64,000 bases of DNA from IMG/VR virus record IMGVR_UViG_3300042345_000884, positions 1-64,000 of that record. One strand, written 5' to 3'. Source of the DNA: a virus. Shown here in pieces: positions 1,275 through 13,960 of this stretch. Both the position numbers and the translations under genes were made by a program. Below the pieces are notes generated by a model. The model did no database searches. It was not told the origin of the DNA and worked only from the letters and a program-made list of their open reading frames with translations. The number at the start of each line of letters is the position of its first letter. The stretch's first letter is position 1.

Positions 1275-1523
1275 ATGTCCGCTAATCAAGATGTCCCAAT
1301 AAAAGTTGTTTCAGTCCGCGTAAAACGAGAGCTATGGGCTGAAATTTGTCAAAGGGCTGAGGTTTTAGACCTAAAGACCCAAGAAGTGTTTGAGATTGCA
1401 CTAAAATCTTACCTTTTTATCCCCATTGACACCGAACTCACTGCCAGAAAAGAAAGCGAAGATGCCTTTTACAACTCTTTGTATAACCTAAAACCTAAGC
1501 GTAGCAAGGATTTGCAGATGTAG
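1275..1523 (+). CDS. ribbon-helix-helix (Arc/CopG-like) DNA-binding protein
   Basis: VVSVRVKRELWAEICQRA...TQEVFEIALKSYL beta-alpha-alpha pattern. Confidence 0.65.
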   Translation: MSANQDVPIKVVSVRVKRELWAEICQRAEVLDLKTQEVFEIALKSYLFIPIDTELTARKESEDAFYNSLYNLKPKRSKDLQM

Positions 1524-1670
1524 TGTAAGTGTAGTATTTACCGATCAAGAAAATTCTGCTAGGATAGTAGATACCTTGATTTGCTCCCTCCTACCCATCT
1601 ACCCAACAAAAAACCCGCTCGGAAGCGGGCCGTGTAAACAAAACACTTTTCTTTTATTTCAATAACATTT

Positions 1671-4553
1671 ATGGTAACACAATCCTCGAATCGTGTCAAG
1701 ATCAACGAAAACAATCCTTGCCCCCACTGTGGTAAGACTGATTGGTGCTATATGTACACAGCCGAGGACGGCAATCTACTCTCGGTATGCAAGCGAAACT
1801 ACGACCCCGCACCAGGATGGGAAAAATCGAGCAAAGTAGATAGTGAGGGTACACCGCTCTACTATCTTAAGAAAGAACCCAAATTTTCTGCCTATAAAGA
1901 AGAAAAAGCCCAATACTTCCTTTATCCCCCTTTTGCCAATGGGTTAAGAGTCCGTGTGTACCGGAAAGATTATTTTGATACAGAAAAGCAAAGATGGGAC
2001 AAAGAAATAAAACAACAGCACTCTACAGATAATGGTAAAAATTGGAAGTGGGGCATAGGTGATATTGAGTACAAAGATATACCTCTTTATCGTCAGAACC
2101 GCCTAGAAAAGGCTATTAAAGAAGGGACCCAGATATTTGTAGTAGAAGGCGAGACTAAGGTAGAAAGGCTTGAGTCGTTTGGGCTGGTTGCCACTTGCAA
2201 TATAGGCGGATCAAAAAAATGGCAGCCAGATCACACGAAAGCTTTAAAGGGAGCAAATCTGATTTTATGCCCTGATCGCGACAAAGGGGGAGTGGCTCAC
2301 TGCCAGAAAATTTATCAAGATTTCCCCGATGCAAAATGGCTTTATGCCTATCCAGATTCTCCTTTATGGGATCACTTGCCAGAATCTCAAGGGGTAGATA
2401 TTATCAATTGGATTGAAGAAAAGAAGGTAACTTGCGATACATTATTAGCTTCGATAGTTGATAAACCAAAAGAAATAAAAGAGAGCAAAGAAAAAGAAGT
2501 CACAGTAACAGAAACGATGACTTTTCAAGACCTAATAACAGCTATTGACGGCTGTATTGGTCAGGAAGAAATCACCCGAACTCAGTGGCAAGAAAAAGTT
2601 GATCTGTGGGCAAAAGCCACTGGTAAAAAGCCAACAGAAATACGGCATTTAATCGACATCCGTAAAACAGAAATAGCGGAAGGGGACGCTATTAAAACAG
2701 GACTAGAAGGTTTCCTGAAAGGTAAGTATTACCAGAAAAAAGAGACTGATCTTTTTGAAATATTGCCGCAACCTTTAGCTGAGGCAATTATATCCCGTGC
2801 CAAGACACTCAATCAACCCCCAATCCGATTACTGCATTCTTTATGGCCAATATTGGGAGCTATTTTAGGTAGTCGATTTGCAATTAATCTCCGAACTACC
2901 GCAAGGGATCGGGAATGCTGGAAGGAATATCCGATTTTTTATTGTGCAGACGCTGGTGGGGTAAGTAGCGGAAAAACTACTACTCAAAAAGAAATTTACA
3001 AGGTATTAAAAAGAAAAGACTTAGATGAGTTAGAAAGACTCTCTAAAAAGCAAGCTAGGCTAAAAGAATTAAAAGCAGAATGGTCTGAAATGACCCGCGA
3101 AGAGCGCAGCACAAACAAAGAAAACGGTGAGGTAAACCCTAGCCTTTACGAAAAAGAAAACTGTCAATCTCGTCGCTGGTTTTACGATGAAGGAACTTTT
3201 GATGGGGTTCTAAAAACGATGTCCACTCAACCTCGCTGGCAAGGTGGGGTATGGGTAGCGGATGAGCTAACGGGACTATTTGAAGGATTAAATCAATACC
3301 GGTCGGGCGGTAAAGGTAATGACCGGCAACGATTGTTATCATCTTGGAATGATCCAGTACAAAATACTTTTGACAGGGTAAAAGAGGAAAATCGCTATTT
3401 CCTGAATGGGCAAACTATCAATATATTAGGTGGGATACAGATACAGAAAGTACAAAAATACTTAGACCTATCTAACGACGTAGATGGATTGGTTTCTCGA
3501 TTTCTTTTTCTATTACATGAACCTCTTGATCCTCAACGCGGGCGACCACCAGAAGACCCTAACTCGATTCAAGAGTGTATTTCTAGTATTATCAATCAAA
3601 TCAGTGGGATTAGCCTAGAAGCTGATGACGATGGAATTGTCGATCCTTATAATTGTTGGTTCACGAAAACTGGTGAGGATTACGCATTTGGAATCAAGTA
3701 TCATTACGAGATGCTTATCAAGAAATATCGAGTAACTAACCCTTCATTCGCTTCTTATATAGGTAAGCAAATGAAGACTTTTTTGAGGCTTACTCTGGCA
3801 ATCCATCTATTGAATTGGATATTTGATCCAGACAACACAAATCTTTACAGTATCCCTGTACAAACAGCCGTTAAAGCGGCTAAGATGACTGATTTTTATA
3901 TTAGCCAATTCTTAACTATTCAGGGGGTTACGTCTCAGGATGAAAATCCAGTACAAGGAATCTTATCCGAGATATGGGAAATTGTTAAAACCACAGGAAA
4001 AATGACACCCCGGGAAGTTGTCGGCAAATTTGGCGGACGTAAAATTAATGGAGAAAAAGTAAATACCTCTATTGCATACACCCTACTTACTCAGTTAGAG
4101 CAAGCTGGCTATGGACGATTAGAGGTCAAGGCAAGGGGCATGGTATTACACTATCAAGAGCCAAAAGAATTAGAAGCTTTTGAGATAGAAGATGAATCCC
4201 TAGAATACCAATCAGAGATAAAAGAAGAAATTGTCCAGGTTCCCACTCCTACTCCAAAACCAGTCACCAAACCTGAGATAGTAGAAGTTGAATCAGAACC
4301 GGTAATCGATGAGTTCTCGGCTGATGGTGTACACATTGATAGCCTTCCTGATCTTGAAAAAGAAAGGGTATTAGTACGAACGGCTGCATCTGTAGAAATA
4401 GGAGAGCGCATTATCCCACCAAGAGTGGTCGGAAAAGTTATAGAAGTAACTTTTGACAATCAATGGCTTTTGAGGGTAGAAACTGTTCTAAATGGGTCTG
4501 TGATTACTTTTACAATTCCATTCTCTAACTGTTATCTAGATATAAGTACCTGA
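1671..4553 (+). CDS. primase (Zn finger + TOPRIM) fused to DUF3987-type domain; replication initiator
   Basis: CPHCGKTDWC, VVEGETK, PDRDKGG; GGVSSGKT P-loop; DELTGLF and DGLVSRFL. Confidence 0.8.
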   Translation: MVTQSSNRVKINENNPCPHCGKTDWCYMYTAEDGNLLSVCKRNYDPAPGWEKSSKVDSEGTPLYYLKKEPKFSAYKEEKAQYFLYPPFANGLRVRVYRKDYFDTEKQRWDKEIKQQHSTDNGKNWKWGIGDIEYKDIPLYRQNRLEKAIKEGTQIFVVEGETKVERLESFGLVATCNIGGSKKWQPDHTKALKGANLILCPDRDKGGVAHCQKIYQDFPDAKWLYAYPDSPLWDHLPESQGVDIINWIEEKKVTCDTLLASIVDKPKEIKESKEKEVTVTETMTFQDLITAIDGCIGQEEITRTQWQEKVDLWAKATGKKPTEIRHLIDIRKTEIAEGDAIKTGLEGFLKGKYYQKKETDLFEILPQPLAEAIISRAKTLNQPPIRLLHSLWPILGAILGSRFAINLRTTARDRECWKEYPIFYCADAGGVSSGKTTTQKEIYKVLKRKDLDELERLSKKQARLKELKAEWSEMTREERSTNKENGEVNPSLYEKENCQSRRWFYDEGTFDGVLKTMSTQPRWQGGVWVADELTGLFEGLNQYRSGGKGNDRQRLLSSWNDPVQNTFDRVKEENRYFLNGQTINILGGIQIQKVQKYLDLSNDVDGLVSRFLFLLHEPLDPQRGRPPEDPNSIQECISSIINQISGISLEADDDGIVDPYNCWFTKTGEDYAFGIKYHYEMLIKKYRVTNPSFASYIGKQMKTFLRLTLAIHLLNWIFDPDNTNLYSIPVQTAVKAAKMTDFYISQFLTIQGVTSQDENPVQGILSEIWEIVKTTGKMTPREVVGKFGGRKINGEKVNTSIAYTLLTQLEQAGYGRLEVKARGMVLHYQEPKELEAFEIEDESLEYQSEIKEEIVQVPTPTPKPVTKPEIVEVESEPVIDEFSADGVHIDSLPDLEKERVLVRTAASVEIGERIIPPRVVGKVIEVTFDNQWLLRVETVLNGSVITFTIPFSNCYLDIST

Positions 4554-4558
4554 TAGGG

Positions 4559-4587
4559 TTGACGATTTCAGAAGTCCCTGATAGGAT
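4559..4587 (+). promoter_or_regulatory. sigma70-type promoter of the tRNA-like RNA
   Basis: TTGACG-17bp-TAGGAT with extended TG; +1 predicted near 4594. Confidence 0.7.
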
Positions 4588-4593
4588 TGAAGT

Positions 4594-4793
4594 GCTAGGG
4601 TAGCTTGGTAGCTAAAGGCTGTGAAACGGAGCCTTCAACCGAAAAGGGACTTAATGCAAAAAATAAAGGTATTTTTTGTTTCAAAACTGAAATTTGCGAA
4701 TCCACCAAACTTGGCAAAGATTGAGTAAGGGAAGGGCGTTTCGTCAGGAGTAGATTTAATTAAGTTTTGCGGGTTCAATTCCCGTCTCTAGTA
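4594..4793 (+). ncRNA. tRNA-like structured RNA with large internal expansions
   Basis: acceptor GCTAGGG/CTCTAGT+A, T-arm GCGGG-TTCAATT-CCCGT, TAGCT-TGGT-AGC D-like arm, long-range GACTTAAT/ATTAAGTT helix, internal hairpins. Confidence 0.7.
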
Positions 4794-4796
4794 CCT

Positions 4797-5000
4797 ATGA
4801 TTGGAAAATACATTTCCTCTCGATACCCTGAAAAAGTTTATCGTGTTAATTCCTATGGTCGTATCTTTCCCTGTTGTAAACCATTGGGAATTATCAAAAC
4901 CGCTATAGGAATCTACTATCATTTTGAATCAATTGATCATCTCACAAAAGGAGAACAATTTTACTGTTTTAGGAAGGAAGATTTTCAAGAAATTTCTTGA
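4797..5000 (+). CDS. hypothetical protein
   Basis: ORF; ATG at 4797 immediately after the RNA. Confidence 0.55.
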   Translation: MIGKYISSRYPEKVYRVNSYGRIFPCCKPLGIIKTAIGIYYHFESIDHLTKGEQFYCFRKEDFQEIS

Positions 5001-5025
5001 CAATTCTAGTAAAATAATGTAAGAT
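4997..5025 (+). promoter_or_regulatory. sigma70 promoter (CTTGACAATTC class)
   Basis: TTGACA-17-TAAGAT. Confidence 0.75.
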
Positions 5026-5051
5026 TTAAGTAATGAATCAAGGAGAAAATT

Positions 5052-5243
5052 ATGAAGCTTGTTGCAGCAGATATGGACACTACTACAATTAGTTATTATG
5101 CTAATTTTTACGCAGGACAATATCGGAGTTCTAAGCAAGAATCTGGAGAAAATGTACAGAAAAAACGTGACACTTTATACTCGAAAATCAAAGAGTATAA
5201 TAAAATCTTAGAACAGCGTGGGCTTGAAAAAGTAAAGGTGTAG
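5052..5243 (+). CDS. hypothetical protein
   Basis: AGGAG RBS plus ORF. Confidence 0.65.
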   Translation: MKLVAADMDTTTISYYANFYAGQYRSSKQESGENVQKKRDTLYSKIKEYNKILEQRGLEKVKV

Positions 5244-5757
5244 GGGCAAAATGATGACAAATTCAGAAAAGCGACTATGGAGTATAATCTTTCGGATAAC
5301 TATTCTGGTTTATATAGTAGTTTCAACGGCTTTATCGCTAGAATCTATAGAATCCCATAAAGACTATAAAGCTAATTTAAAGTCTATTATACGGTATTGT
5401 TTAGACAATAAGTAAAGGTGTAATCATGGAGGAAACTAAAAAAGTGTGGAAAAACTTATCGAGTCAAGATAACATTGATAAAAACAAAGGACTTATCAGA
5501 GGGACGGAAGAACAAAAGTCTGCCAAAAGACTTAAGGCGCATTTAGATTATTGTAGGCAAAATTCAAAAAATTGGAAACAATGAGATACACAATTAAAAC
5601 AATAGATGGAAAAAATAAGCCTTGCAGGATCAAGACTTCTATGCACGAAAGCCGATTAATGGCTTATCTAGAAGCTTTAGCCCGCAATGGGCATCACAGT
5701 ATCGTAGTAGAAACAGTAAGTATTTCCTAGTAGTTTCACCCAATAGGAGTAACAGTA

Positions 5758-6165
5758 ATGGACACACAACTAGTAGCGGAAAAGCTATTCAATTTCTGTA
5801 AAGAAAAATACCCAGATTTAGACTGGAATTGCGATTTTACAGATGACTACGATAAAGTCATTCGATCACCTTATCTCGATAGATATGGAAAAATTTGGCT
5901 AGACGGATCACTTGAGTGTGTAATTTTGTTAGATGGATCACTTGAGTGTGTTCGATGGCAAGACAACCGAATAGGAAGCTTTAAAATTTGGATAAATCCT
6001 CCGATTGAGGATATAAGTTCTCGGTATGAAGACACCATAGTTTTTGAGAATCTTGCGTATTATAGATATAAGCTATGGAACGCAGAAAATTGGGAGTTAG
6101 TCAAACAATATCGAAAAATAATGTTAGATATTTTTAACTTCATCCTTGATGAAATTCAAGAATAA
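5758..6165 (+). CDS. paralogue-array protein 1
   Basis: MDTQ..EKLFNFC...FNFILDEIQE; AGGAG RBS; internal LDGSLECV duplication. Confidence 0.85.
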   Translation: MDTQLVAEKLFNFCKEKYPDLDWNCDFTDDYDKVIRSPYLDRYGKIWLDGSLECVILLDGSLECVRWQDNRIGSFKIWINPPIEDISSRYEDTIVFENLAYYRYKLWNAENWELVKQYRKIMLDIFNFILDEIQE

Positions 6166-6171
6166 AAACAA

Positions 6172-6196
6172 TACTAGACAGAATATCTGTCTAGTA
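6172..6196. repeat. intergenic hairpin, copy 1
   Basis: TACTAGACAGA-ATA-TCTGTCTAGTA. Confidence 0.85.
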
Positions 6197-6221
6197 GTTT
6201 CACCCAATAGGAGTAACAGTA

Positions 6222-6617
6222 ATGGACACACAACAAGTAACAGAGAAATTATTTAATTTCTGTAAAGAAAAATACCCAGATTTAGACTGGAACTATAGTA
6301 AAGAATGTTCAAAAACAGTTTGTCCTGTTGTATTTATTTCTGGCTCATGTCCTTTATTTAAATTAGAGTTAAAGATTGTTGAAGATTGGTTAAGAATTGA
6401 ATGTATTCGAGGCTATCTTAACCTACAAGACATAAATTTTAGGGGATGTTTCTTAGTTCAACTAAATGACGATAAAGATAGTGAGCTAGAGTTTTACAGG
6501 TCTGATTTTAATGAAACAACTAAGCCGCTAGATAAAAATAAATGGAATCTGTGTAAAAAAGCCAGAAAAATAGTGAGAGAAATCTTTAATTTTATTGAAG
6601 ATGAAATCCAAGAATAG
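6222..6617 (+). CDS. paralogue-array protein 2
   Basis: same N- and C-terminal motifs. Confidence 0.85.
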   Translation: MDTQQVTEKLFNFCKEKYPDLDWNYSKECSKTVCPVVFISGSCPLFKLELKIVEDWLRIECIRGYLNLQDINFRGCFLVQLNDDKDSELEFYRSDFNETTKPLDKNKWNLCKKARKIVREIFNFIEDEIQE

Positions 6618-6632
6618 ACAGGAGTAACAGTA

Positions 6633-7073
6633 ATGGACACACAACAAATAGCGGAAAAGTTATTTAATTTTTGTGAGGGAAGATACCCAGATTTAAAATG
6701 GACATGGAATTATTCTTATAGTGATATTGGTAGAGATGTTTCACTTATTTCACTCATTCTTGGCTCTTGCTCTTTATTTAAATTAGAGATAGAAATTCGC
6801 TCATATAAAAAACAAGAGCGTTATTTTTACGAAAAAGAAGCTACTTACGATTATATACTGGGGTCGCTTTTAATACCTCAATCAGAAGAAAAATCTTTAC
6901 TTCCCTGGTTAGGTAGTTTTCAAGTAAGTCTAAACCATAACAAAAACAGCGAGTTAGAGTTTATGATTGCCACTCATGACGAGTGGAATGATGATAGCTG
7001 GGGTATAGTAAAAAAAGCCAGAAAAATGGTAAGAGAAGTCTTTAATTTTATTGAAGATGAAATTCAACAGTAA
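6633..7073 (+). CDS. paralogue-array protein 3
   Basis: same N- and C-terminal motifs. Confidence 0.85.
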   Translation: MDTQQIAEKLFNFCEGRYPDLKWTWNYSYSDIGRDVSLISLILGSCSLFKLEIEIRSYKKQERYFYEKEATYDYILGSLLIPQSEEKSLLPWLGSFQVSLNHNKNSELEFMIATHDEWNDDSWGIVKKARKMVREVFNFIEDEIQQ

Positions 7074-7079
7074 AAACAT

Positions 7080-7104
7080 TACTAGACAGAATATCTGTCT
7101 AGTA
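7080..7104. repeat. intergenic hairpin, copy 2
   Basis: identical to 6172-6196. Confidence 0.85.
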
Positions 7105-7129
7105 AATTCACCCAATAGGAGTTAAATCA

Positions 7130-7492
7130 ATGGACATAAAACAAGTAACAGAGAAAATATTTGAATTCTGTCACAGAAGTTATCCAAGTTTAAGATGGAA
7201 TCTTGACTCTGAAAATAATATAATTCAGTGTCCACTTTTTCCTGATGAATTAATAATAGAGGTTTTTCTAGATGGTCCGCTTAAGCGTGTTTCATGCGAA
7301 GCGTATTATGTGGGCTCATTTGGATTATGGATAAACCCTGACGATAAAGACAATAACTATCCTTATGAGAATCAAATAGCATTTGATTATATTAGAAAAT
7401 CAAAATCTGATTATTTTGATAACAAATACAGAGAAACTCGAAAAGTAATGCTAGACATTTTCACTTTTATTCTCGATGAAATTCAAGAGTAA
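7130..7492 (+). CDS. paralogue-array protein 4
   Basis: MDIKQVTEKIFEFC...FTFILDEIQE. Confidence 0.85.
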   Translation: MDIKQVTEKIFEFCHRSYPSLRWNLDSENNIIQCPLFPDELIIEVFLDGPLKRVSCEAYYVGSFGLWINPDDKDNNYPYENQIAFDYIRKSKSDYFDNKYRETRKVMLDIFTFILDEIQE

Positions 7493-7505
7493 ATAGGAGC
7501 AACAT

Positions 7506-7916
7506 ATGGACACATGGGAAATAGATATTTATGAAAAGATAGAGGTATTAAAACAAATCGGGGTTTTTTGTGATAATGCCTATAAAATGATTGATTACTC
7601 AAAATGGACTCTTAAACTAAGGCAAATAGATGTTTTCACCGATTTAGTACTAGAAGGCTCTATCAATATTCTCTATCCAAACGAGCTAAAAGGAAAATAC
7701 AATGTTTGGGTTGAGTATCGTTCTAAATCGTCTAAAACTTTAGTAGTTAAGGTAAAAGGGGCAGTCACCGAACATGATTGGGTTGAGATAGATTCAATTA
7801 AAAAAGAGCCAAAAAGTGAAGGAGACAACGAAATCTTAAATATCTTAATTCCAGAAGCAACAAAGATCATGGAGACTATTTTAGGCTTTATTAAAACAAT
7901 TAAAGCTGAGGATTAA
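7506..7916 (+). CDS. paralogue-array protein 5 (subfamily B)
   Basis: LKQIGVFC...ILIPEATKIMETILGFIKTI. Confidence 0.8.
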   Translation: MDTWEIDIYEKIEVLKQIGVFCDNAYKMIDYSKWTLKLRQIDVFTDLVLEGSINILYPNELKGKYNVWVEYRSKSSKTLVVKVKGAVTEHDWVEIDSIKKEPKSEGDNEILNILIPEATKIMETILGFIKTIKAED

Positions 7917-7921
7917 CGCTA

Positions 7922-8418
7922 ATGAACAAAACAGAAGCATTAAAACAAATTGAGGTTTTCTGTAAAGAAACTTTTAAGCATCCTAAAAATTGGAGTCTTG
8001 AAGCGCAGAAGCTCGGCGTAAGTTCCTACGACAAGGACACCAATACTTTCGAGCATTTATATGGGGAGCTTGTCTTAAAAGGCGTGATTTTTGTTGTTTA
8101 TCCTAGCGAATTACTACAAGGAGTTTTTCCTCATGACATTTACTAGGAAGATATTATATTTCAATTAAATATCTTCCCAAGCCGTCTAACATTTTAGAGA
8201 CTAAAGTAGAAAGTTATTTGACACAAACTCAGGTGACTATGTTGCTAATAGGAGATTATCGCCAAGAAAATAAAAGCTGGGTTCAGCTTATTTCAACTAA
8301 AGAAGAATCAGATGTTGCGGGAGATAACGAAGGTTTAAAGATATTGATTCCAGAAGCAACAAAGATAATGGAGACTATTTTAGGCTTTATTAAAACAATT
8401 GAGGCTACAGACACTTAA
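7922..8418 (+). pseudogene. paralogue-array protein 6, frameshifted by a 29-bp insertion
   Basis: N-half (7922) and C-half (8218) both match protein 5; deleting 8117-8145 restores the frame. Confidence 0.75.
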
Positions 8419-8422
8419 AACA

Positions 8423-8755
8423 ATGGCAACAAACGAAGAACTAGGACTTCCGACTAAAGGAACGTATCCAGCTAAGGTAATTAAAGTTATCGATGATTTT
8501 AAAGTAGTAATAAACCGTGGTAAATTAAATTGTATCCGAATAGATGCCTCTCACTTGGTTTATTCAATTACAAACAAGCCAATATACGACCCAATAACTA
8601 GAGACTTCATTGGTCATCGTATCCTTTATAAAGGGTCGGGGAAGGTTATTTCTGTTGAGGAAAATACCTCTATTATTCAAGCTTGCAACAATTCTCGATA
8701 CGATTGCGAGAAATTTATCAATGTTTGCGTCGGTGATTTAGTTATTTGTATTTGA
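8423..8755 (+). CDS. small beta-barrel protein (FlgT C-terminal-like)
   Basis: VVINRG...IYDPIT..FIG...GKVISV pattern. Confidence 0.5.
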   Translation: MATNEELGLPTKGTYPAKVIKVIDDFKVVINRGKLNCIRIDASHLVYSITNKPIYDPITRDFIGHRILYKGSGKVISVEENTSIIQACNNSRYDCEKFINVCVGDLVICI

Positions 8756-8765
8756 GGTAAAAACA

Positions 8766-9269
8766 ATGGAAGTATTAAAAGAAAAGTCACTAAAAGAAAT
8801 CAGAGATTTCTTTAAAAAAACTTTTGAGCAGATGAGTATCTCCGAATACGATACAGTGGACATCTCGGAGTGGGATACGGTCGCAGACGATAAATGTATT
8901 CGTTTAATAGGAACTTTGATAATTAAAGAAGATTATCTTTACAAAACTTATGGTAAGTTAATAAAAAACAAAAAGTATGAAGTTTTGATTGAATGTCGAG
9001 AAATTTCGACTGAATATCAATTAGCGGACAAATCCCTTGAAAAAATCACAATAGAAGGTACGTTAGGCGGGTCTTTGGTTATTCTGCGTTGGAACTACAG
9101 TCTTGACAGAAACGATAAAACCTCAAGTTATAATCTTTATCCAAGCGGAAACAAAGAAGAGTTAAATATTTTAATTCCAGAAACAGAAAAGATATTGGAG
9201 ACTATTTTAGAAAAATGGCTTTTATACAAGATGGAATATGTTTATGGGGTAAAGGTACACAAATTGTAA
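8766..9269 (+). CDS. paralogue-array protein 7
   Basis: LKEIRDFFK...NILIPETEKILETIL. Confidence 0.7.
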   Translation: MEVLKEKSLKEIRDFFKKTFEQMSISEYDTVDISEWDTVADDKCIRLIGTLIIKEDYLYKTYGKLIKNKKYEVLIECREISTEYQLADKSLEKITIEGTLGGSLVILRWNYSLDRNDKTSSYNLYPSGNKEELNILIPETEKILETILEKWLLYKMEYVYGVKVHKL

Positions 9270-9318
9270 TTAACATTCTTTCATTTATCGAACATGAAAT
9301 ACAAACCGAGGTGACACC

Positions 9319-9807
9319 ATGACAACAGCAGAAGAGTTTTTTAAAAAGTTAGAAGCTATAGAACGCACACACAAAACAAGACTACTACAAAAGATTGCAT
9401 CTTTTTGTTATAAAGAATATAATGCTAATTCTGACTGGAACAGTTGGTCGTTTAAAAATTTTCTTTGGTCTGAATGGCAATTAAAATTTGATGAACAAAT
9501 TTGCCTAATAGCTAATGCTAGGGTTCTTTTAGATAGTCAGACAATAGCCCATGTCGAGGTTTTTTGTGGTTTTATACCAAGCTTTGGCTTAATACCAGAA
9601 ATCAGATTAACTGGTACGATATTTGATTTAAGAACAGGAAAAATAAAAGAAATAGCCATGTGTAAAGAGTATGGTGATCTAGATAATGGGTATTGCTCAG
9701 GATTTGGAATCTCTGACAAACAAGAGGAGATTACCTTTATTCGTGACAAGACAGGCGAAATAGCAGAAGCTATATCAAATTTTATCAAAACTGAAATACA
9801 ATTTTGA
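9319..9807 (+). CDS. paralogue-array protein 8 (divergent)
   Basis: LQKIASFC...ISNFIKTEIQF. Confidence 0.65.
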   Translation: MTTAEEFFKKLEAIERTHKTRLLQKIASFCYKEYNANSDWNSWSFKNFLWSEWQLKFDEQICLIANARVLLDSQTIAHVEVFCGFIPSFGLIPEIRLTGTIFDLRTGKIKEIAMCKEYGDLDNGYCSGFGISDKQEEITFIRDKTGEIAEAISNFIKTEIQF

Positions 9808-9808
9808 G

Positions 9809-10342
9809 GTGATTATGACTTTTAATGACAACGAAAGTGATGCAGAATACTGTGAAAAAATCTTCGGACAAGATTTTGAATATTTAATTCCTGATGATTG
9901 GTGCGAACCAAGTCAAGAGCAAAAAATATTTTATCTACTTTGGACTCCTAGTCTTTGCCATCTTAAGATTGGAAAAGCTGACGACGAAAAAAATCTGTTA
10001 CTAAGACTACAAGAACGAACTCGACAATGCGGTAAAACAATGATTTTAGGAATAAAATATTGTTTTGATCCTACAGAAGAAGAAAAATTCTGGAAAGACA
10101 ATTTATGTATTGGTATGACAAAAAACACAAAAATTAAACCAATTAAAATAGCAAGAGAAGTGTTTGATTTGTCTGCTAATACGGAGTTATTTGATTACCT
10201 TATTTTTATATGCAATCAAAGAAATGTGATAGCTGGAAGTAATCTATGGCGGTTTTGGTGCGATGACTTTTGCGGGGAATTACTTGCAGAAAATCCAAAA
10301 ATAATGGCAAATATTTGCAGTGCTTTGATGGAATTGGACTAG
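9809..10342 (+). CDS. GIY-YIG/T5orf172-like nuclease domain protein
   Basis: IFYLL...LKIGKA....RLQE. Confidence 0.5.
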   Translation: MIMTFNDNESDAEYCEKIFGQDFEYLIPDDWCEPSQEQKIFYLLWTPSLCHLKIGKADDEKNLLLRLQERTRQCGKTMILGIKYCFDPTEEEKFWKDNLCIGMTKNTKIKPIKIAREVFDLSANTELFDYLIFICNQRNVIAGSNLWRFWCDDFCGELLAENPKIMANICSALMELD

Positions 10343-10375: not shown

Positions 10376-12199
10376 ATGACACTAACACTACAAACACAAA
10401 CACTTTTTGTACCGCCTAAGCCACAAATTCAATTAAGAGACGACCAAAAAACTCTTAAAAGAGAACTGTATGATGCTCTAAAAATCCATAAAAGAGCCTT
10501 AGTAGTTGCCCCTTGCGGATGGGGAAAGACAGTATTTTTCTGTCAAATAATTTATGATGCCGCCGTAAAAAGACAGCGACGGACTTTAATTGTAGTACCG
10601 TTTACCGTACTCATTCAGCAAACCCTAGAAACTCTAGGGAAATTTGGATTAACTGCCGGAGTAATTGCTGGTAGCTACAAAGAAGATAGAAGTCAATTAG
10701 TTCAGATTGCAACAACTCAAACCTTGTCTAGAGGACGCAGTATTACTTGGTTTAACCCCGAAGTAATACTAGCCGACGAGGTTCATTTATCAGCTTATTG
10801 TCAATGGTTTAAGGATAATTTTACTAATCTTAAGAATGGTAAACAGACAACCTCAATCAAAGACATTCGTGATGAATTAGCAGTATTAGGTATTGCCGTA
10901 GAAAGAGAAGATATAGAAACTTACAAAATAACTTTTGATGAAGCTAAGGAAAAATACAAACATCTTAACTTAATTCACGCTGAATCAAAAGAAATCTTAC
11001 AAGAAATAAACTCGGCATGGGAAGTGATTCGTAAGCAACAGCATCTTTTTTCGGGGAAACCCCTACCAGTAGATAATCGTCTCGTAATTGGTCTAACCGC
11101 AACCCCGTGGCGGTTATCGAAACGTGAAGAGTTAGGGGATATTTTCGAGGTTCAAGTGACTGGGCCTACTCCAAAAGGAATGATCGAACGGGGTGCGCTT
11201 GTTGGCTGTGTCTATTTCGGAACTAAAAATAAAATAAATACTAAAGGGGTAAAAATTAATGGCGGTGACTTTGATGCTAGTCAGTTAGAAATTCGTTGTT
11301 TAGAAGCGGTAAAATCGACGGTTTCCGAGTATCGTAGGCTCGGTCAGGGGAGACAATTTGTTTGTTTTGCGGCGGGTGTGGAACACGCCAAAAGCCTCTG
11401 TACAGAATTTAACGAAAGGGGTATCCCTACGGCTGTTATAACAGCCGAAACACCAGAACAGGAAAGAAGAGAAATATTTAGAAAAGTAGCTGAATTAAGA
11501 TTGAGAGGGATTGTAAATATTAACACTTGTGGAATAGGATTTAACCTACCCGCAATTTCTTGTATTATTCACGCCAGACCGACCAAAAGCCGAACCCTTT
11601 ATATTCAGATGACTGGTCGGGGACAAAGGCTCTGTATTTGGTTAGATAAAGTTGATTGTTTGGTATTGGATCAAGCGGGGAACGTAACCGAACACGGATT
11701 TATTGAAGATGTAGATTATCCTAAGCTCTCTACATCTTCCGATACTCAAAAAGGACAAGCTCCGATTAAAGAGTGCGAAAACTGCGGTAAAATAACCTAC
11801 GCATCTGCTCGTATCTGTCCTCATTGTGGTTACGAATTTCCAACAAAAGAGAAAAAACAAATAGCTAACGAAAGACTAGAAATTATAATTCACGACAAGG
11901 ATAGAGAGTTATACCTAGCCTATAAGTACGCCCTCAAAGAAGCTTACAAGAAAGGTGAACATATTGATAGTGTCCGGGGATGGATGATAAAAACATTCAA
12001 AAATCCTAAATTAAGCAAGGACTGGATGCCTCCTAAAGCTTGGAAGTTGCACGCAATCTTTAAAAAAGACTATACTGTAAAAGACTTGAATAATTACGAG
12101 GCTTACTTGAAAAGTCTTTGTAAAATTGAAAACAATAACTGGGTAAAAGCCAAGATGGGAGAGGAATTCGGGGATGACTGGGACAATATTCGGGAATAA
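10376..12199 (+). CDS. SF2 DEAD/DEAH helicase with C-terminal Zn ribbon
   Basis: APCGWGKT, DEVH, TATP, QMTGRGQR, CENC/CPHC. Confidence 0.9.
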   Translation: MTLTLQTQTLFVPPKPQIQLRDDQKTLKRELYDALKIHKRALVVAPCGWGKTVFFCQIIYDAAVKRQRRTLIVVPFTVLIQQTLETLGKFGLTAGVIAGSYKEDRSQLVQIATTQTLSRGRSITWFNPEVILADEVHLSAYCQWFKDNFTNLKNGKQTTSIKDIRDELAVLGIAVEREDIETYKITFDEAKEKYKHLNLIHAESKEILQEINSAWEVIRKQQHLFSGKPLPVDNRLVIGLTATPWRLSKREELGDIFEVQVTGPTPKGMIERGALVGCVYFGTKNKINTKGVKINGGDFDASQLEIRCLEAVKSTVSEYRRLGQGRQFVCFAAGVEHAKSLCTEFNERGIPTAVITAETPEQERREIFRKVAELRLRGIVNINTCGIGFNLPAISCIIHARPTKSRTLYIQMTGRGQRLCIWLDKVDCLVLDQAGNVTEHGFIEDVDYPKLSTSSDTQKGQAPIKECENCGKITYASARICPHCGYEFPTKEKKQIANERLEIIIHDKDRELYLAYKYALKEAYKKGEHIDSVRGWMIKTFKNPKLSKDWMPPKAWKLHAIFKKDYTVKDLNNYEAYLKSLCKIENNNWVKAKMGEEFGDDWDNIRE

Positions 12200-12839: not shown

Positions 12840-12987
12840 GTATCTGTTTTTTCCACGCAATCTTTTAGTGGTTCCTTATCAATCTGGAATCTATTGCCTA
12901 CCAACTTTTCCTATTAGAATAGAAAAAACTATTAACGTCCCTTATCAATCTGGTATCTATTGTCCCCAAAATATTGTTAGGAGTTAA
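12832..12987 (+). CDS. 51-aa peptide built from the VPYQSGIYC repeat
   Basis: MSRYLFFPRNLLVVPYQSGIYCLPTFP...; below ORF-track cut-off. Confidence 0.45.
   Translation: MSRYLFFPRNLLVVPYQSGIYCLPTFPIRIEKTINVPYQSGIYCPQNIVRS
12871..12980 (+). repeat. 110-bp direct repeat, copy 1
   Basis: 108/110 identical to 14675-14784. Confidence 0.9.
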
Positions 12988-12991
12988 TCTT

Positions 12992-13960
12992 ATGACCTTA
13001 CCTGTTGTTGGTTCAAGAAACACATTTGCCACTTATGGCTGGCGTACCGCTGACGCTGGCGGAGTTTACTTCAATTTGGCTAATTTTCTTTTATTTTTAG
13101 ATGCCATTGGTATCACCTCAACTCATCGGTTTGTCAAACCTGATCCAGATAACCAGATTAATATTCGGTTTCCAGCAGTTGATACTGATTTAATACAATT
13201 CGGGGATGTCGATGGCAGCTTTGGCTGGAGTAGTGGCCGACATCGGGCGCAAATCTTCTTTAGCAATACTATTGGACAAAACCCTTTTTTTTGGGGCTGG
13301 TCAGGACACACTTACCAAACAAAAACTCAACTGAACGACAATAGATTTACAATTGTTGGTAACTATAACGGCGCGGCGTCAGGATATTTTTACGCTTGTG
13401 GAGATAACAAAGGTATCGCTATGTTTGCGATTAATAATACTGGATTAAATACTTTTGGCAACATATATTCCTTCCACTACTTCGGATACTGCGATAATCC
13501 AGCATCAGTTGCTTATTTTGGGAACAATAATTCCTATCCACTGGATTACATTACTGCTTATGGATTGGGTAATGGAACGGGTCCCGACTTGGGGGCGGGA
13601 AGAATCAAAGAAATGACAATACCTGGAGTATCACCGCCAGGCGGTGCAAATCCTCAATTTGTATTACCGATTACTTCTATAGCCTGTGCTACCCCTACAC
13701 CTAATGCTAGTGTTTCCAATCTTATTTTCCGTGACAACGGCACTACCGATTACGGCACTAATTATCCAATAGGAATAGCGAGGCCGTTCTTATTATTTAC
13801 TACTCAAGACCTACCGATAAATAGTCTACACAGAGTTGAAACAGTCCCACCAGCCCAACCAACGCCAGAAGATCACTTTCATCTAGTAGTTAGCAAGGTG
13901 GCTGGGGGCGGCAGCTTGTTGATGCCAATTATTACCGATGGTATTACGATGAATCCTTAA
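12992..13960 (+). CDS. putative tail fibre / receptor-binding protein
   Basis: G/N/T/aromatic-rich, lies among baseplate genes. Confidence 0.55.
   Translation: MTLPVVGSRNTFATYGWRTADAGGVYFNLANFLLFLDAIGITSTHRFVKPDPDNQINIRFPAVDTDLIQFGDVDGSFGWSSGRHRAQIFFSNTIGQNPFFWGWSGHTYQTKTQLNDNRFTIVGNYNGAASGYFYACGDNKGIAMFAINNTGLNTFGNIYSFHYFGYCDNPASVAYFGNNNSYPLDYITAYGLGNGTGPDLGAGRIKEMTIPGVSPPGGANPQFVLPITSIACATPTPNASVSNLIFRDNGTTDYGTNYPIGIARPFLLFTTQDLPINSLHRVETVPPAQPTPEDHFHLVVSKVAGGGSLLMPIITDGITMNP

What the first reader, a model, noticed from the sequence alone, without database searches (positions are those of the whole stretch)
5758..9807. Tandem array of eight paralogues with conserved ends and hypervariable cores
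Four genes share MDxxQxxEKLFxFC...YPxLxW and I/VFxFIxDEIQE with near-identical DNA at the ends but largely unalignable middles. Four more share LKQIxxFC and LIPEATKIMETIL/FIKTEIQ. Genes 1 and 2 share the N-terminus, 2 and 3 share core and C-terminus, and 1 and 4 share the C-terminus, so the genes are mosaic. Inference: a recombination-driven diversifying cassette array (fixed helical scaffold, variable binding surface), plausibly anti-defence or host-takeover factors, downstream of the 4997 promoter and the tRNA-like RNA.
Basis: partly seen in the sequence, partly recalled or inferred. Interest (0 to 1): 0.8.

Follow-up and report, generated by a model that had tools for sequence, protein, structure and literature searches.

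The report
Recombining paralogue array in Microcystis phages
Viruses of the bloom-forming cyanobacterium Microcystis carry a fast-changing tandem cluster of small related genes that keep the same protein frame but swap and vary their middles; this looks like an arms-race toolkit, but its target is unknown.

Summary
Window 5758-9807 has seven intact members and one frameshifted member of a single protein superfamily. It also holds an unrelated conserved gene (gX) and the 3' scrap of a ninth member.

AlphaFold models of one member from each group give the same helix / six-strand sheet / helix sandwich. The two conserved end helices frame a variable sheet.

The family has no Pfam, PHROG, NCBIfam or PADLOC match and no convincing solved-structure relative. 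It occurs only in Microcystis-type phages, on three unrelated phage backbones. Two window genes are about 88% identical in DNA to genes of Fukuivirus phages.

In 36 complete arrays of the window's own lineage there are 20 architectures with 3-11 genes. Several results point to homologous recombination at the conserved ends:
- breakpoints fall in the conserved ends;
- one gene is an intragenic chimera;
- truncated copies are common;
- synonymous divergence is higher in the ends than in the cores of orthologues.

No reverse transcriptase is present, so this is not a diversity-generating retroelement.

The function is untested. Counter-defence or host takeover is the best guess. First readers of this scan noted the same family in other genomes, none followed up.

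The parts
4997..5025 (+). Sigma-70-like promoter site (TTGACA, 17 nt, TAAGAT) at the head of the same-strand gene run
   Evidence: Pattern scan, 10 of 12 matches. The 4960-5060 stretch is 85-98% identical in almost all related loci, including those of the third phage backbone. Activity was not tested.
5052..5730 (+). Four tiny leader ORFs (5052-5243, 5251-5415, 5426-5584, 5572/5582-5730) that travel with the array
   Evidence: ORF list. tblastn finds them upstream of the array in the window lineage and in the third backbone. They are not members of the family.
5758..6165 (+). g1, family member of type A, 135 aa
   Evidence: Orthologues at 88-90% identity. pI 4.5.
6172..6196 (.). Perfect palindromic hairpin in the long linker; a second copy lies at 7079-7105
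   Evidence: A contig joint 6180->7094 runs from one hairpin copy to the other.
6222..6617 (+). g2, family member of type C, 131 aa
6633..7073 (+). g3, family member of type C, 146 aa
7130..7492 (+). g4, family member of type A, 120 aa; modelled
   Evidence: 88.6% DNA identity to a gene of the MaMV-CH02 and MaMV-DH01 phages. AlphaFold2 pLDDT 84.5, pTM 0.80: helix 3-17, six strands, helix 98-118.
7506..7916 (+). g5, family member of type H, 136 aa; modelled
   Evidence: AlphaFold2 pLDDT 86.5, pTM 0.82: helix 8-25, six strands, helix 108-135.
7922..8418 (+). g6, frameshifted member of type G (ORF pieces 7922-8146 and 8218-8418)
   Evidence: Intact orthologues of 164-168 aa match both pieces at 86-99%. 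The frame changes between 8136 and 8146. The intact allele has an extra A behind 8139 in runs X4 and X19. The broken allele is letter-identical in the independent DNA run X2.
8423..8755 (+). gX, conserved single-copy gene that is not a family member, 110 aa from the ATG
   Evidence: No BLAST link to the family. Present in most arrays at 79-94% aa identity. Orthologues are 110 aa and 80-95% identical. dS 0.14, dN/dS 0.25.
8766..9269 (+). g8, family member of type B with an aberrant C-terminal tail, 167 aa
   Evidence: 88.8% DNA identity to MaMV-CH02 gene 148L. An extra stretch of about 70 nt interrupts the usual C-terminal helix coding.
9263..9322 (+). Out-of-frame 3' scrap of a lost I/J-type member (..FIEHEIQTEVTP, stop overlapping the g9 start in ATGA)
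   Evidence: (repeat family D6). In locus L066 the same DNA is the end of an intact J-type gene, and collinearity with the window resumes exactly at 9284.
9319..9807 (+). g9, family member of type D, 162 aa, with a bridging C-terminus (NFIKTEIQF)
9809..10342 (+). g10, strain-specific gene between the array and the helicase; not a family member
   Evidence: Found only in the window and in L066. No family match in any library.

Best explanation
This is a birth-and-death multigene family of small, mostly acidic cytoplasmic phage proteins. Each is a single domain: an N-terminal and a C-terminal helix lie on one face of a six-stranded antiparallel sheet. The helices are conserved and form the frame. 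The strands and loops differ between types.

The genes lie head to tail in one transcription unit, between the primase-helicase and the SF2 helicase genes. The conserved 5' and 3' gene ends and the short linkers act as homology patches. Recombination between them, within a genome or between co-infecting phages, deletes, duplicates, replaces and fuses cassettes. As a result closely related phages carry different sets, and the module has moved between unrelated Microcystis phages. These steps are shown.

Inferred: the members are binding proteins whose variable face recognises different host proteins, or variants of one. Most likely these are components of the unusually large Microcystis defence and toxin-antitoxin arsenal. 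On this reading the array is a counter-defence or host-takeover repertoire kept diverse by an arms race.
For: One family:
- All 312 near-full-length sequences form one BLAST component.
- hhalign of the two groups gives 97% probability, E 1e-10, over 117 columns.

Same fold:
- Searches give the same order of helices and strands.
- Both models share their top structural neighbours.
- In BFVD the g5 model hits only other family members.

Real genes: each has a GGAG site before the ATG, and dN/dS is below 1.

Phage-only and narrow:
- 231 clusters in metagenomes, but only about 25 representatives at 50% identity among 1.84 billion.
- One hit in 185,579 prokaryote genomes, on a 10-kb contig of an Acidimicrobium-labelled MAG.

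Three backbones. Two genes are 88-89% identical in DNA to Fukuivirus genes while the flanks do not match.

Turnover:
- 20 architectures in 36 complete arrays, with 3-11 genes.
- Fukuivirus phages carry 0, 1 or 3 copies at one site.
- Truncated members and a segregating frameshift allele occur.

Recombination at the ends:
- Cassette replacement between genomes that are 96-97% identical, with a breakpoint at the conserved C-terminal motif.
- Contig joints at linkers and gene ends.
- An intragenic chimera.
- N-end types shared between core types.
- Within orthologue groups, dS of the ends reaches 0.43-0.61 against 0.09-0.27 in the cores.

Selection: core dN/dS is 0.29-0.77, against 0.09 for the helicase and 0.25 for gX in the same loci.

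Host context: Microcystis has exceptionally abundant defence genes (PMC5780444).
Against: - No activity, partner or homologue with a known function was found.
- No known anti-defence gene sits beside the array.
- The neighbourhood is replication or middle class rather than immediate-early, by analogy with Ma-LMM01.
- The dN/dS values are pooled Nei-Gojobori estimates and stay below 1, so positive selection is not shown.
- The RNA evidence is metatranscriptome contigs only, and these may contain DNA.
- End conservation could also reflect folding constraints alone. The excess third-position identity in the ends is modest: 0.75 and 0.68 against 0.60 in the cores.
Confidence: 0.55

Rival explanations
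1. The members are packaged internal (ejected) virion proteins, like the T-even internal proteins. The conserved terminal segment would be a capsid-targeting or processing signal, and the variable body would act on the next host at injection.
For: The closest formal parallel from general knowledge is the polymorphic ip locus of T-even phages, where small proteins share a conserved N-terminal targeting sequence and have diverse bodies. The N-terminal 24 residues here are the best conserved part.
Against: The genes sit in a replication-gene operon behind a sigma-70-like site, not among the head genes. Both models build the N-terminal helix into the domain core, at pLDDT 91-96 in g4. The C-terminus is equally conserved. 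No protease-site motif was seen.
Confidence: 0.08
2. The array is an immunity or exclusion repertoire used in phage-phage or phage-element conflict. It would resemble the polyimmunity loci of polymorphic toxin systems, with each paralogue neutralising a different incoming toxin or nuclease of competitors.
For: Tandem arrays of diversified small alpha+beta proteins with recombining conserved ends are typical of immunity-gene arrays (general knowledge). Several lineages co-occur in the same lake metagenomes and exchange cassettes.
Against: No toxin gene is adjacent. Pfam shows no match to known immunity families. The family is absent from cellular genomes.
Confidence: 0.12
3. The members are accessory subunits of the phage's own replication machinery, or regulators of it. 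The conserved helices would dock on the primase-helicase or the helicase, and the paralogues would be functionally redundant.
For: In the window lineage the array always lies between the primase-helicase and the helicase. In Fukuivirus phages it lies next to the DNA primase. The C-terminal acidic motif (DEIQE) is conserved.
Against: In the third backbone the module abuts baseplate genes instead. Ma-LMM01 and MaMV-DC replicate without any member. Redundant replication subunits would not be expected to diversify their whole sheet or to vary from 0 to 11 copies.
Confidence: 0.1
4. The copies are functionless, selfishly duplicating filler. The array would be a recombination hotspot whose copies drift and decay.
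For: One frameshifted member, one scrap and many truncated copies are present. Core dN/dS reaches 0.7-0.8 in two groups.
Against: dN/dS is below 1 in all groups. Each type has conserved orthologues. All 36 complete arrays of the lineage hold at least 3 members. The module was taken up by three backbones. The folds are confidently predicted.
Confidence: 0.1

Closest known systems
Hyperplastic regions of T4-type phages, shuffled through PeSL cassettes (Arbiol et al. 2010, PMC2839356; Comeau et al. 2014, PMC4122927)
   Same: Clusters of small non-essential genes of unknown function. Insertions, deletions and replacements between close relatives are mediated by recombination at short conserved motifs that include a stem-loop. 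Both are vehicles for horizontal transfer.
   Different: Here the exchanged genes are paralogues of one family, and the homology patches are mainly the coding 5' and 3' ends plus an RBS linker. The linker hairpin carries no promoter hexamers.
Segmental amplification of the counter-defence gene tifA in T4 (Srikant et al. 2022, PMC9391042), and the 'genomic accordions' and multigene families of poxviruses and ASFV (general knowledge)
   Same: Copy-number change of an accessory gene by recombination, followed by divergence and loss. Repertoires differ between close strains and are tied to host-specific conflicts.
   Different: Those amplifications are recent, near-identical copies of a gene with a known target. 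Here the copies are old and deeply diverged (cores 39-53% DNA identity), and the target is unknown.
Polymorphic internal-protein (ip) locus of T-even phages (general knowledge; reviewed in PMC3012670)
   Same: Several small proteins share a conserved terminal segment and have diverse bodies at one variable locus. At least one (IPI*) is an anti-restriction protein.
   Different: ip proteins are packaged and cleaved at an N-terminal targeting peptide. Here both ends are conserved and are structural parts of the fold, and the genes lie in a replication operon.
Anti-CRISPR and anti-defence loci with a conserved anchor gene (general knowledge)
   Same: Variable sets of small genes lie beside a conserved neighbour. 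Here that could be gX or the four leader ORFs.
   Different: acr genes at a locus are usually unrelated to each other. gX shows no HTH and no family match.
KA1 / TBP-like / frataxin-like two-layer alpha+beta sandwiches
   Same: Two helices lie on one face of an antiparallel sheet. For the g4 and g5 models respectively: KA1 of Chk1 (5wi2_B) scores Z 7.6 (rmsd 2.8, 79 aligned) and Z 7.2 (rmsd 3.0, 84 aligned); TBP-like 4jhy_A scores Z 6.5 (rmsd 3.7, 90 aligned) and Z 7.2 (rmsd 4.0, 108 aligned). Frataxins score Z about 5 with the g4 model only.
   Different: The Z scores are in the range that the tool itself calls a common arrangement. Foldseek finds nothing at E <= 0.001. There is no sequence signal.

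Membership tests
Tandem multigene family with birth-and-death turnover ('accordion'-type accessory array) | Adjacent paralogues that are demonstrably homologous | tested here: met
   One BLAST component of 312 sequences. hhalign 97% probability, E 1e-10. Matching models.
Tandem multigene family with birth-and-death turnover ('accordion'-type accessory array) | Copy number and content differ between close relatives, and pseudogenes are present | tested here: met
   20 architectures in 36 complete arrays, 3-11 genes. Frameshifted g6, a scrap and truncated members.
Tandem multigene family with birth-and-death turnover ('accordion'-type accessory array) | Rearrangement breakpoints fall in the repeated (conserved) segments | tested here: met
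   Breakpoint at 9284 between L066 and the window. Joints at 6166/7129, 6180/7094 and 7819/8325. Chimeric gene in L015.
PeSL-mediated modular shuffling (T4-type hyperplastic regions) | Intergenic cassette made of a strong sigma-70-like promoter plus a stem-loop terminator | tested here: not met
   Two linkers carry a perfect hairpin, but neither has promoter hexamers or a T-run on the + strand. The single promoter-like site is at 4997.
Diversity-generating retroelement target | A reverse transcriptase and a template/variable repeat pair that differ at adenines | tested here: not met
   No RVT_1 match in the 77.9-kb genome, which CheckV estimates as 86% complete. The repeats are the gene ends, not the cores, and the cores differ by indels.
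T-even internal proteins | Packaged in the head and cleaved after an N-terminal capsid-targeting sequence | not testable with these tools
   Needs virion proteomics. Context and models argue against it.
Known anti-defence, defence or immunity protein families | A significant profile match | tested here: not met
   No match in Pfam, PHROGs, PADLOC or NCBIfam at E <= 0.01. No dedicated anti-defence library was available.
KA1 / TBP-like / frataxin-like folds | A structural match clearly above background that covers the domain | tested here: inconclusive
   Best matches: Z 7.6 (5wi2_B, rmsd 2.8, 79 aligned) for g4 and Z 9.3 (8fbd_D, rmsd 3.6, 129 aligned) for g5. Foldseek finds nothing.
YdhG / DUF1801 | A reproducible profile match | tested here: inconclusive
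   E 0.031 with the whole-family profile, 0.61 with A4, and absent with A5.

The most novel reading that the evidence does not exclude
The array is a phage-borne, recombining repertoire of single-domain binders. A constant pair of helices would dock on one shared partner or simply hold the fold. The interchangeable sheet faces would each neutralise a different member of the expanded restriction, abortive-infection and toxin-antitoxin arsenal of Microcystis. Co-infecting, unrelated phages would trade cassettes through the conserved gene ends, making a community-level counter-defence gene pool.
Probability: 0.3. Interest if true: 0.85.

Novelty: new variant of a known kind. Interest (0 to 1): 0.6.

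Why it matters
Microcystis blooms are shaped by phages, and Microcystis carries one of the largest defence arsenals known, yet no counter-defence gene of its phages has been identified. This family is the most plastic part of an abundant phage lineage. It is shared by three unrelated Microcystis phage groups, and it is present in some cultured phages (three genes in MaMV-CH, -DL and -DH) but absent from their close relatives (MaMV-DC, Ma-LMM01). That is a ready-made natural experiment.

It is also a clean example in phages of cassette exchange through conserved coding ends, a process better known from immunity and antigen gene arrays.

Tried and rejected
- Pfam, PHROGs, PADLOC and NCBIfam gave nothing significant.
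- Foldseek against PDB gave nothing at E <= 0.001. The ESM Atlas gave no usable hit.
- YdhG/DUF1801 is a weak sequence lead that is not reproducible across profiles.
- The long multi-stretch hits of the representative search are unrelated repeat proteins that match the 'KYPDxDW' motif by chance.
- The search for longer, fused forms found none, which is weak evidence.
- The genome-contig scan found one locus only, a 10-kb contig in a MAG labelled Acidimicrobium.
- A DGR is rejected because no RT is present.
- A first hhalign with only 4 and 3 sequences failed to link the two groups (5% probability). Richer alignments did link them.
- The first regex-based extraction kept only 84 of 153 genes, so that third-position statistic covers a subset.
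- Morimoto et al. 2023 (PMC9972985) is not held. No paper describing this family was found.
- Some parts of the stretch had no RNA-contig cover. Nothing is concluded from that.


Full report
CONTEXT. The window is the first 64 kb of a 77,922-bp single-contig virus record (CheckV estimates 86% complete). Its genes include a 960-aa primase-helicase (1671-4553), an SF2 helicase (10376-12199), ribonucleotide reductase, thymidylate synthase and tail genes. Nothing in the phage collection is collinear with it. Only the array region matches, at about 86%, in five Microcystis phages of the genus Fukuivirus. The primase-helicase has only remote relatives.

THE OBSERVATION. Between 5758 and 9807 all long ORFs are on the + strand and tightly packed. 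g1-g4 share the start MDxxQ..EK(L/I)FxFC..YPxLxW and the end IFxFIxDEIQ. g5, g6, g8 and g9 share LKxIxxF(C/F) and a C-terminal KIxETIL / FIKT motif. The repeat families coincide with gene ends and linkers. For g1-g4, DNA identity is 68-89% in the first 24 codons, 39-53% in the cores and 63-83% in the last 22 codons.

Four things were missed:
- g6 is broken. It reads as two ORFs (7922-8146 and 8218-8418) in different frames. Intact orthologues of 164-168 aa cover both pieces at 86-99%.
- An unrelated gene, gX, lies inside the array. Its orthologues are 110 aa, 80-95% identical and single-copy, so the true start is the ATG at 8423.
- Behind g8, out of frame, lies ..FIEHEIQTEVTP with its stop overlapping the g9 start. 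This is the tail of a lost member.
- g8 itself has an extra stretch of about 70 nt that interrupts the usual C-terminal helix coding.

ONE FAMILY, ONE FOLD. A profile of all nine pieces finds 231 clusters (at 90% identity) in public data, nearly all unnamed metagenome proteins. Together with the ORFs of 64 IMG/VR loci there are 321 distinct sequences. Of these, 312 form one BLAST component at 70% or more coverage, and they fall into 21 groups at 50% identity. Intermediate types (I, J, E) combine an A-like YPxLxW start or NEIQ end with B-like features. Profile-profile comparison of the two halves gives 97% probability, E 1e-10, over 117 columns. An earlier try with very thin alignments had failed.

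AlphaFold2 models:
- g4: pLDDT 84.5, pTM 0.80.
- g5: pLDDT 86.5, pTM 0.82.

Both models have the same order: N-terminal helix, six strands, C-terminal helix. They also share structural neighbours: the KA1 domain 5wi2_B (Z 7.6 and 7.2), the AMPK alpha C-terminal domain, the TBP-like 4jhy_A, BamC-N, and OrfX3 8fbd_D (Z 6.3 and 9.3). These scores lie in the range the tool describes as a common arrangement, and Foldseek finds nothing significant in the PDB. In BFVD the g5 model matches only four or five uncharacterised phage proteins whose lengths and identities fit other family types.

The conserved positions are the two helices plus a GxF...(W/L)xN strand. Most members are acidic (median pI 4.6-5.3), though types E and I are basic. 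No library gives a family match. A weak YdhG/DUF1801 signal is not reproducible.

DISTRIBUTION. An exhaustive HMMER scan of 1.84 billion representatives returns only 33 hits. The real ones are family members and the long ones are chance motif matches. One locus turns up in 185,579 prokaryotic species genomes, on a 10-kb contig of an Acidimicrobium-labelled MAG. No longer, fused forms were found. The family therefore appears confined to phages of Microcystis-type freshwater blooms. Runs holding the stretch are lake and freshwater metagenomes from 20 studies.

It sits on three backbones:
(i) The window's own lineage, about 50 loci. The primase-helicase is 78-90% and the helicase 87-100% identical in protein, and the array always lies between the last leader ORF and the helicase.
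(ii) Fukuivirus phages. The array lies immediately upstream of the DNA primase, with three members in MaMV-CH01/02, DL01/02 and DH01 and one member in two IMG/VR contigs. MaMV-DC has none. Ma-LMM01 also has none; an insertion sequence (gp135/136) occupies that site.
(iii) A third myovirus-like lineage. Here the module, with the same promoter region and leader ORFs, abuts convergent baseplate genes that have no homologue in the window genome.

g4 and g8 (with its trailing scrap) are 88.6% and 88.8% identical in DNA to the Fukuivirus genes, while the flanks do not align. This is horizontal transfer. It happened after the scrap was formed.

TURNOVER AND RECOMBINATION. Among 36 arrays of lineage (i) that are bounded by both flanking genes there are 20 architectures with 3-11 family genes, spanning 1.3-5.3 kb. 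The window's order (A C C A H [broken G] gX B D) is a further one. Truncated members are common (types P, L, M, T).

The evidence for recombination at the conserved ends:
- Locus L066 is 96-97% identical to the window on both sides. There, window 8441-9283 (gX plus g8) is replaced by 327 nt, the body of a J-type gene. Collinearity resumes exactly at 9284, the conserved C-terminal motif.
- One gene in L015 is an intragenic chimera. Its first two thirds are of the P0112 type and its last third is of the g4 type.
- Contigs of independent metagenomes join g1 directly to g4 (6166 to 7129; X2 depth about 30, also X4), join hairpin to hairpin (6180 to 7094), and fuse g5 with the g6 tail (7819 to 8325).
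- Within orthologue groups, synonymous divergence is higher in the ends than in the cores. For the g1 group it is 0.43 and 0.49 against 0.13; for the g4 C-end 0.47 against 0.09; for the g3 N-end 0.61 against 0.22. Yet between paralogues the ends are the most similar parts. The ends therefore have their own genealogies.
- N-end sequence types are shared among different core types, with one full four-combination case.

Core dN/dS is 0.29-0.77, against 0.09 for the helicase and 0.25 for gX in the same loci. No reverse transcriptase is present.

The g6 frameshift allele is letter-identical in an independent 2020 DNA run. The intact allele (one extra A behind 8139) shares the 2016 run with it and appears in a metatranscriptome contig. 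The break is therefore a real, persisting allele and not an assembly slip.

EXPRESSION. A TTGACA-17-TAAGAT site at 4997 heads the run of four tiny ORFs, the array, g10 and the helicase. No + strand terminator-like site lies inside. The promoter stretch is 85-98% conserved in nearly all loci of backbones (i) and (iii). Metatranscriptome contigs cover g4, g5, gX and g8, but such libraries can contain DNA. In Ma-LMM01 the primase neighbourhood is middle class (PMC5780444). The 'early host-takeover' label is thus unproven.

INTERPRETATION. The following are shown:
- a phage-restricted superfamily with one fold;
- conserved helices and variable sheets;
- cassette-like exchange through the conserved ends;
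- rapid gain and loss;
- spread across unrelated phages of one host genus.

The following is inferred: the proteins bind diverse host targets, most plausibly defence or toxin-antitoxin components. This rests on the evolutionary pattern and on the host's known arsenal. The rivals (packaged internal proteins, an immunity repertoire for inter-phage conflict, replisome accessories, junk) are each less consistent with the context, but none is excluded.

The closest described process is PeSL-mediated shuffling in T4-type hyperplastic regions (PMC2839356, PMC4122927). Next closest is recombination-driven copy-number change of counter-defence genes (PMC9391042). The difference here is an old, diversified paralogue family whose own coding ends serve as the recombination patches.

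First readers of this scan noted the same family in at least five other genomes. None of those notes was followed up.

Noticed in passing
window 9809-10342: g10 (177 aa, acidic, 10 Cys) sits between the array and the helicase. It occurs only in the window and in the near-identical locus L066, so it is a strain-specific insertion. No family match in any library.
   Followed up: partly
L068 (Ma-LMM01) 1334-3092; L069 (MaMV-DC): The site just upstream of the Fukuivirus DNA primase is a plasticity hotspot. It holds an IS element (transposases gp135/136) in Ma-LMM01, almost nothing in MaMV-DC, and three family genes in MaMV-CH, -DL and -DH.
   Followed up: partly
window 4555-4800: The tRNA-shaped RNA gene upstream is itself present or absent among relatives. 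It is 94-99% identical in 25 loci of the window lineage and missing from others, such as L003 and L017, that keep the promoter and the array.
   Followed up: partly
window 13127-13669 versus L066 5221-5799: Within 97-99% identical flanks, a segment of about 540 nt of the 328-aa ORF 12974-13960 (next to the tail-fibre-like genes) is replaced or highly diverged in L066. This may be a receptor-binding swap.
   Followed up: no
L010 2194-3402; own genome about 73808-74554 (outside the window): A TnpB / IS605 OrfB-type gene (Pfam OrfB_IS605 plus Cas12f1-like TNB) lies just upstream of the module in the third backbone. A 30% identical relative lies near the end of the window's own genome.
   Followed up: no
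P0081, P0078, P0100 (family proteins from metagenomes): Some A-type members carry a duplicated N-terminal helix segment (MEIQQIAERI.. followed by ..KIFNFC). This is another scar of recombination within the conserved 5' end.
   Followed up: no
window 5052-5243: The first leader ORF (63 aa) has a weak match (E 0.009, far below the cut-off) to a YlxM-type putative DNA-binding protein model. It might be a small regulator of the module.
   Followed up: no
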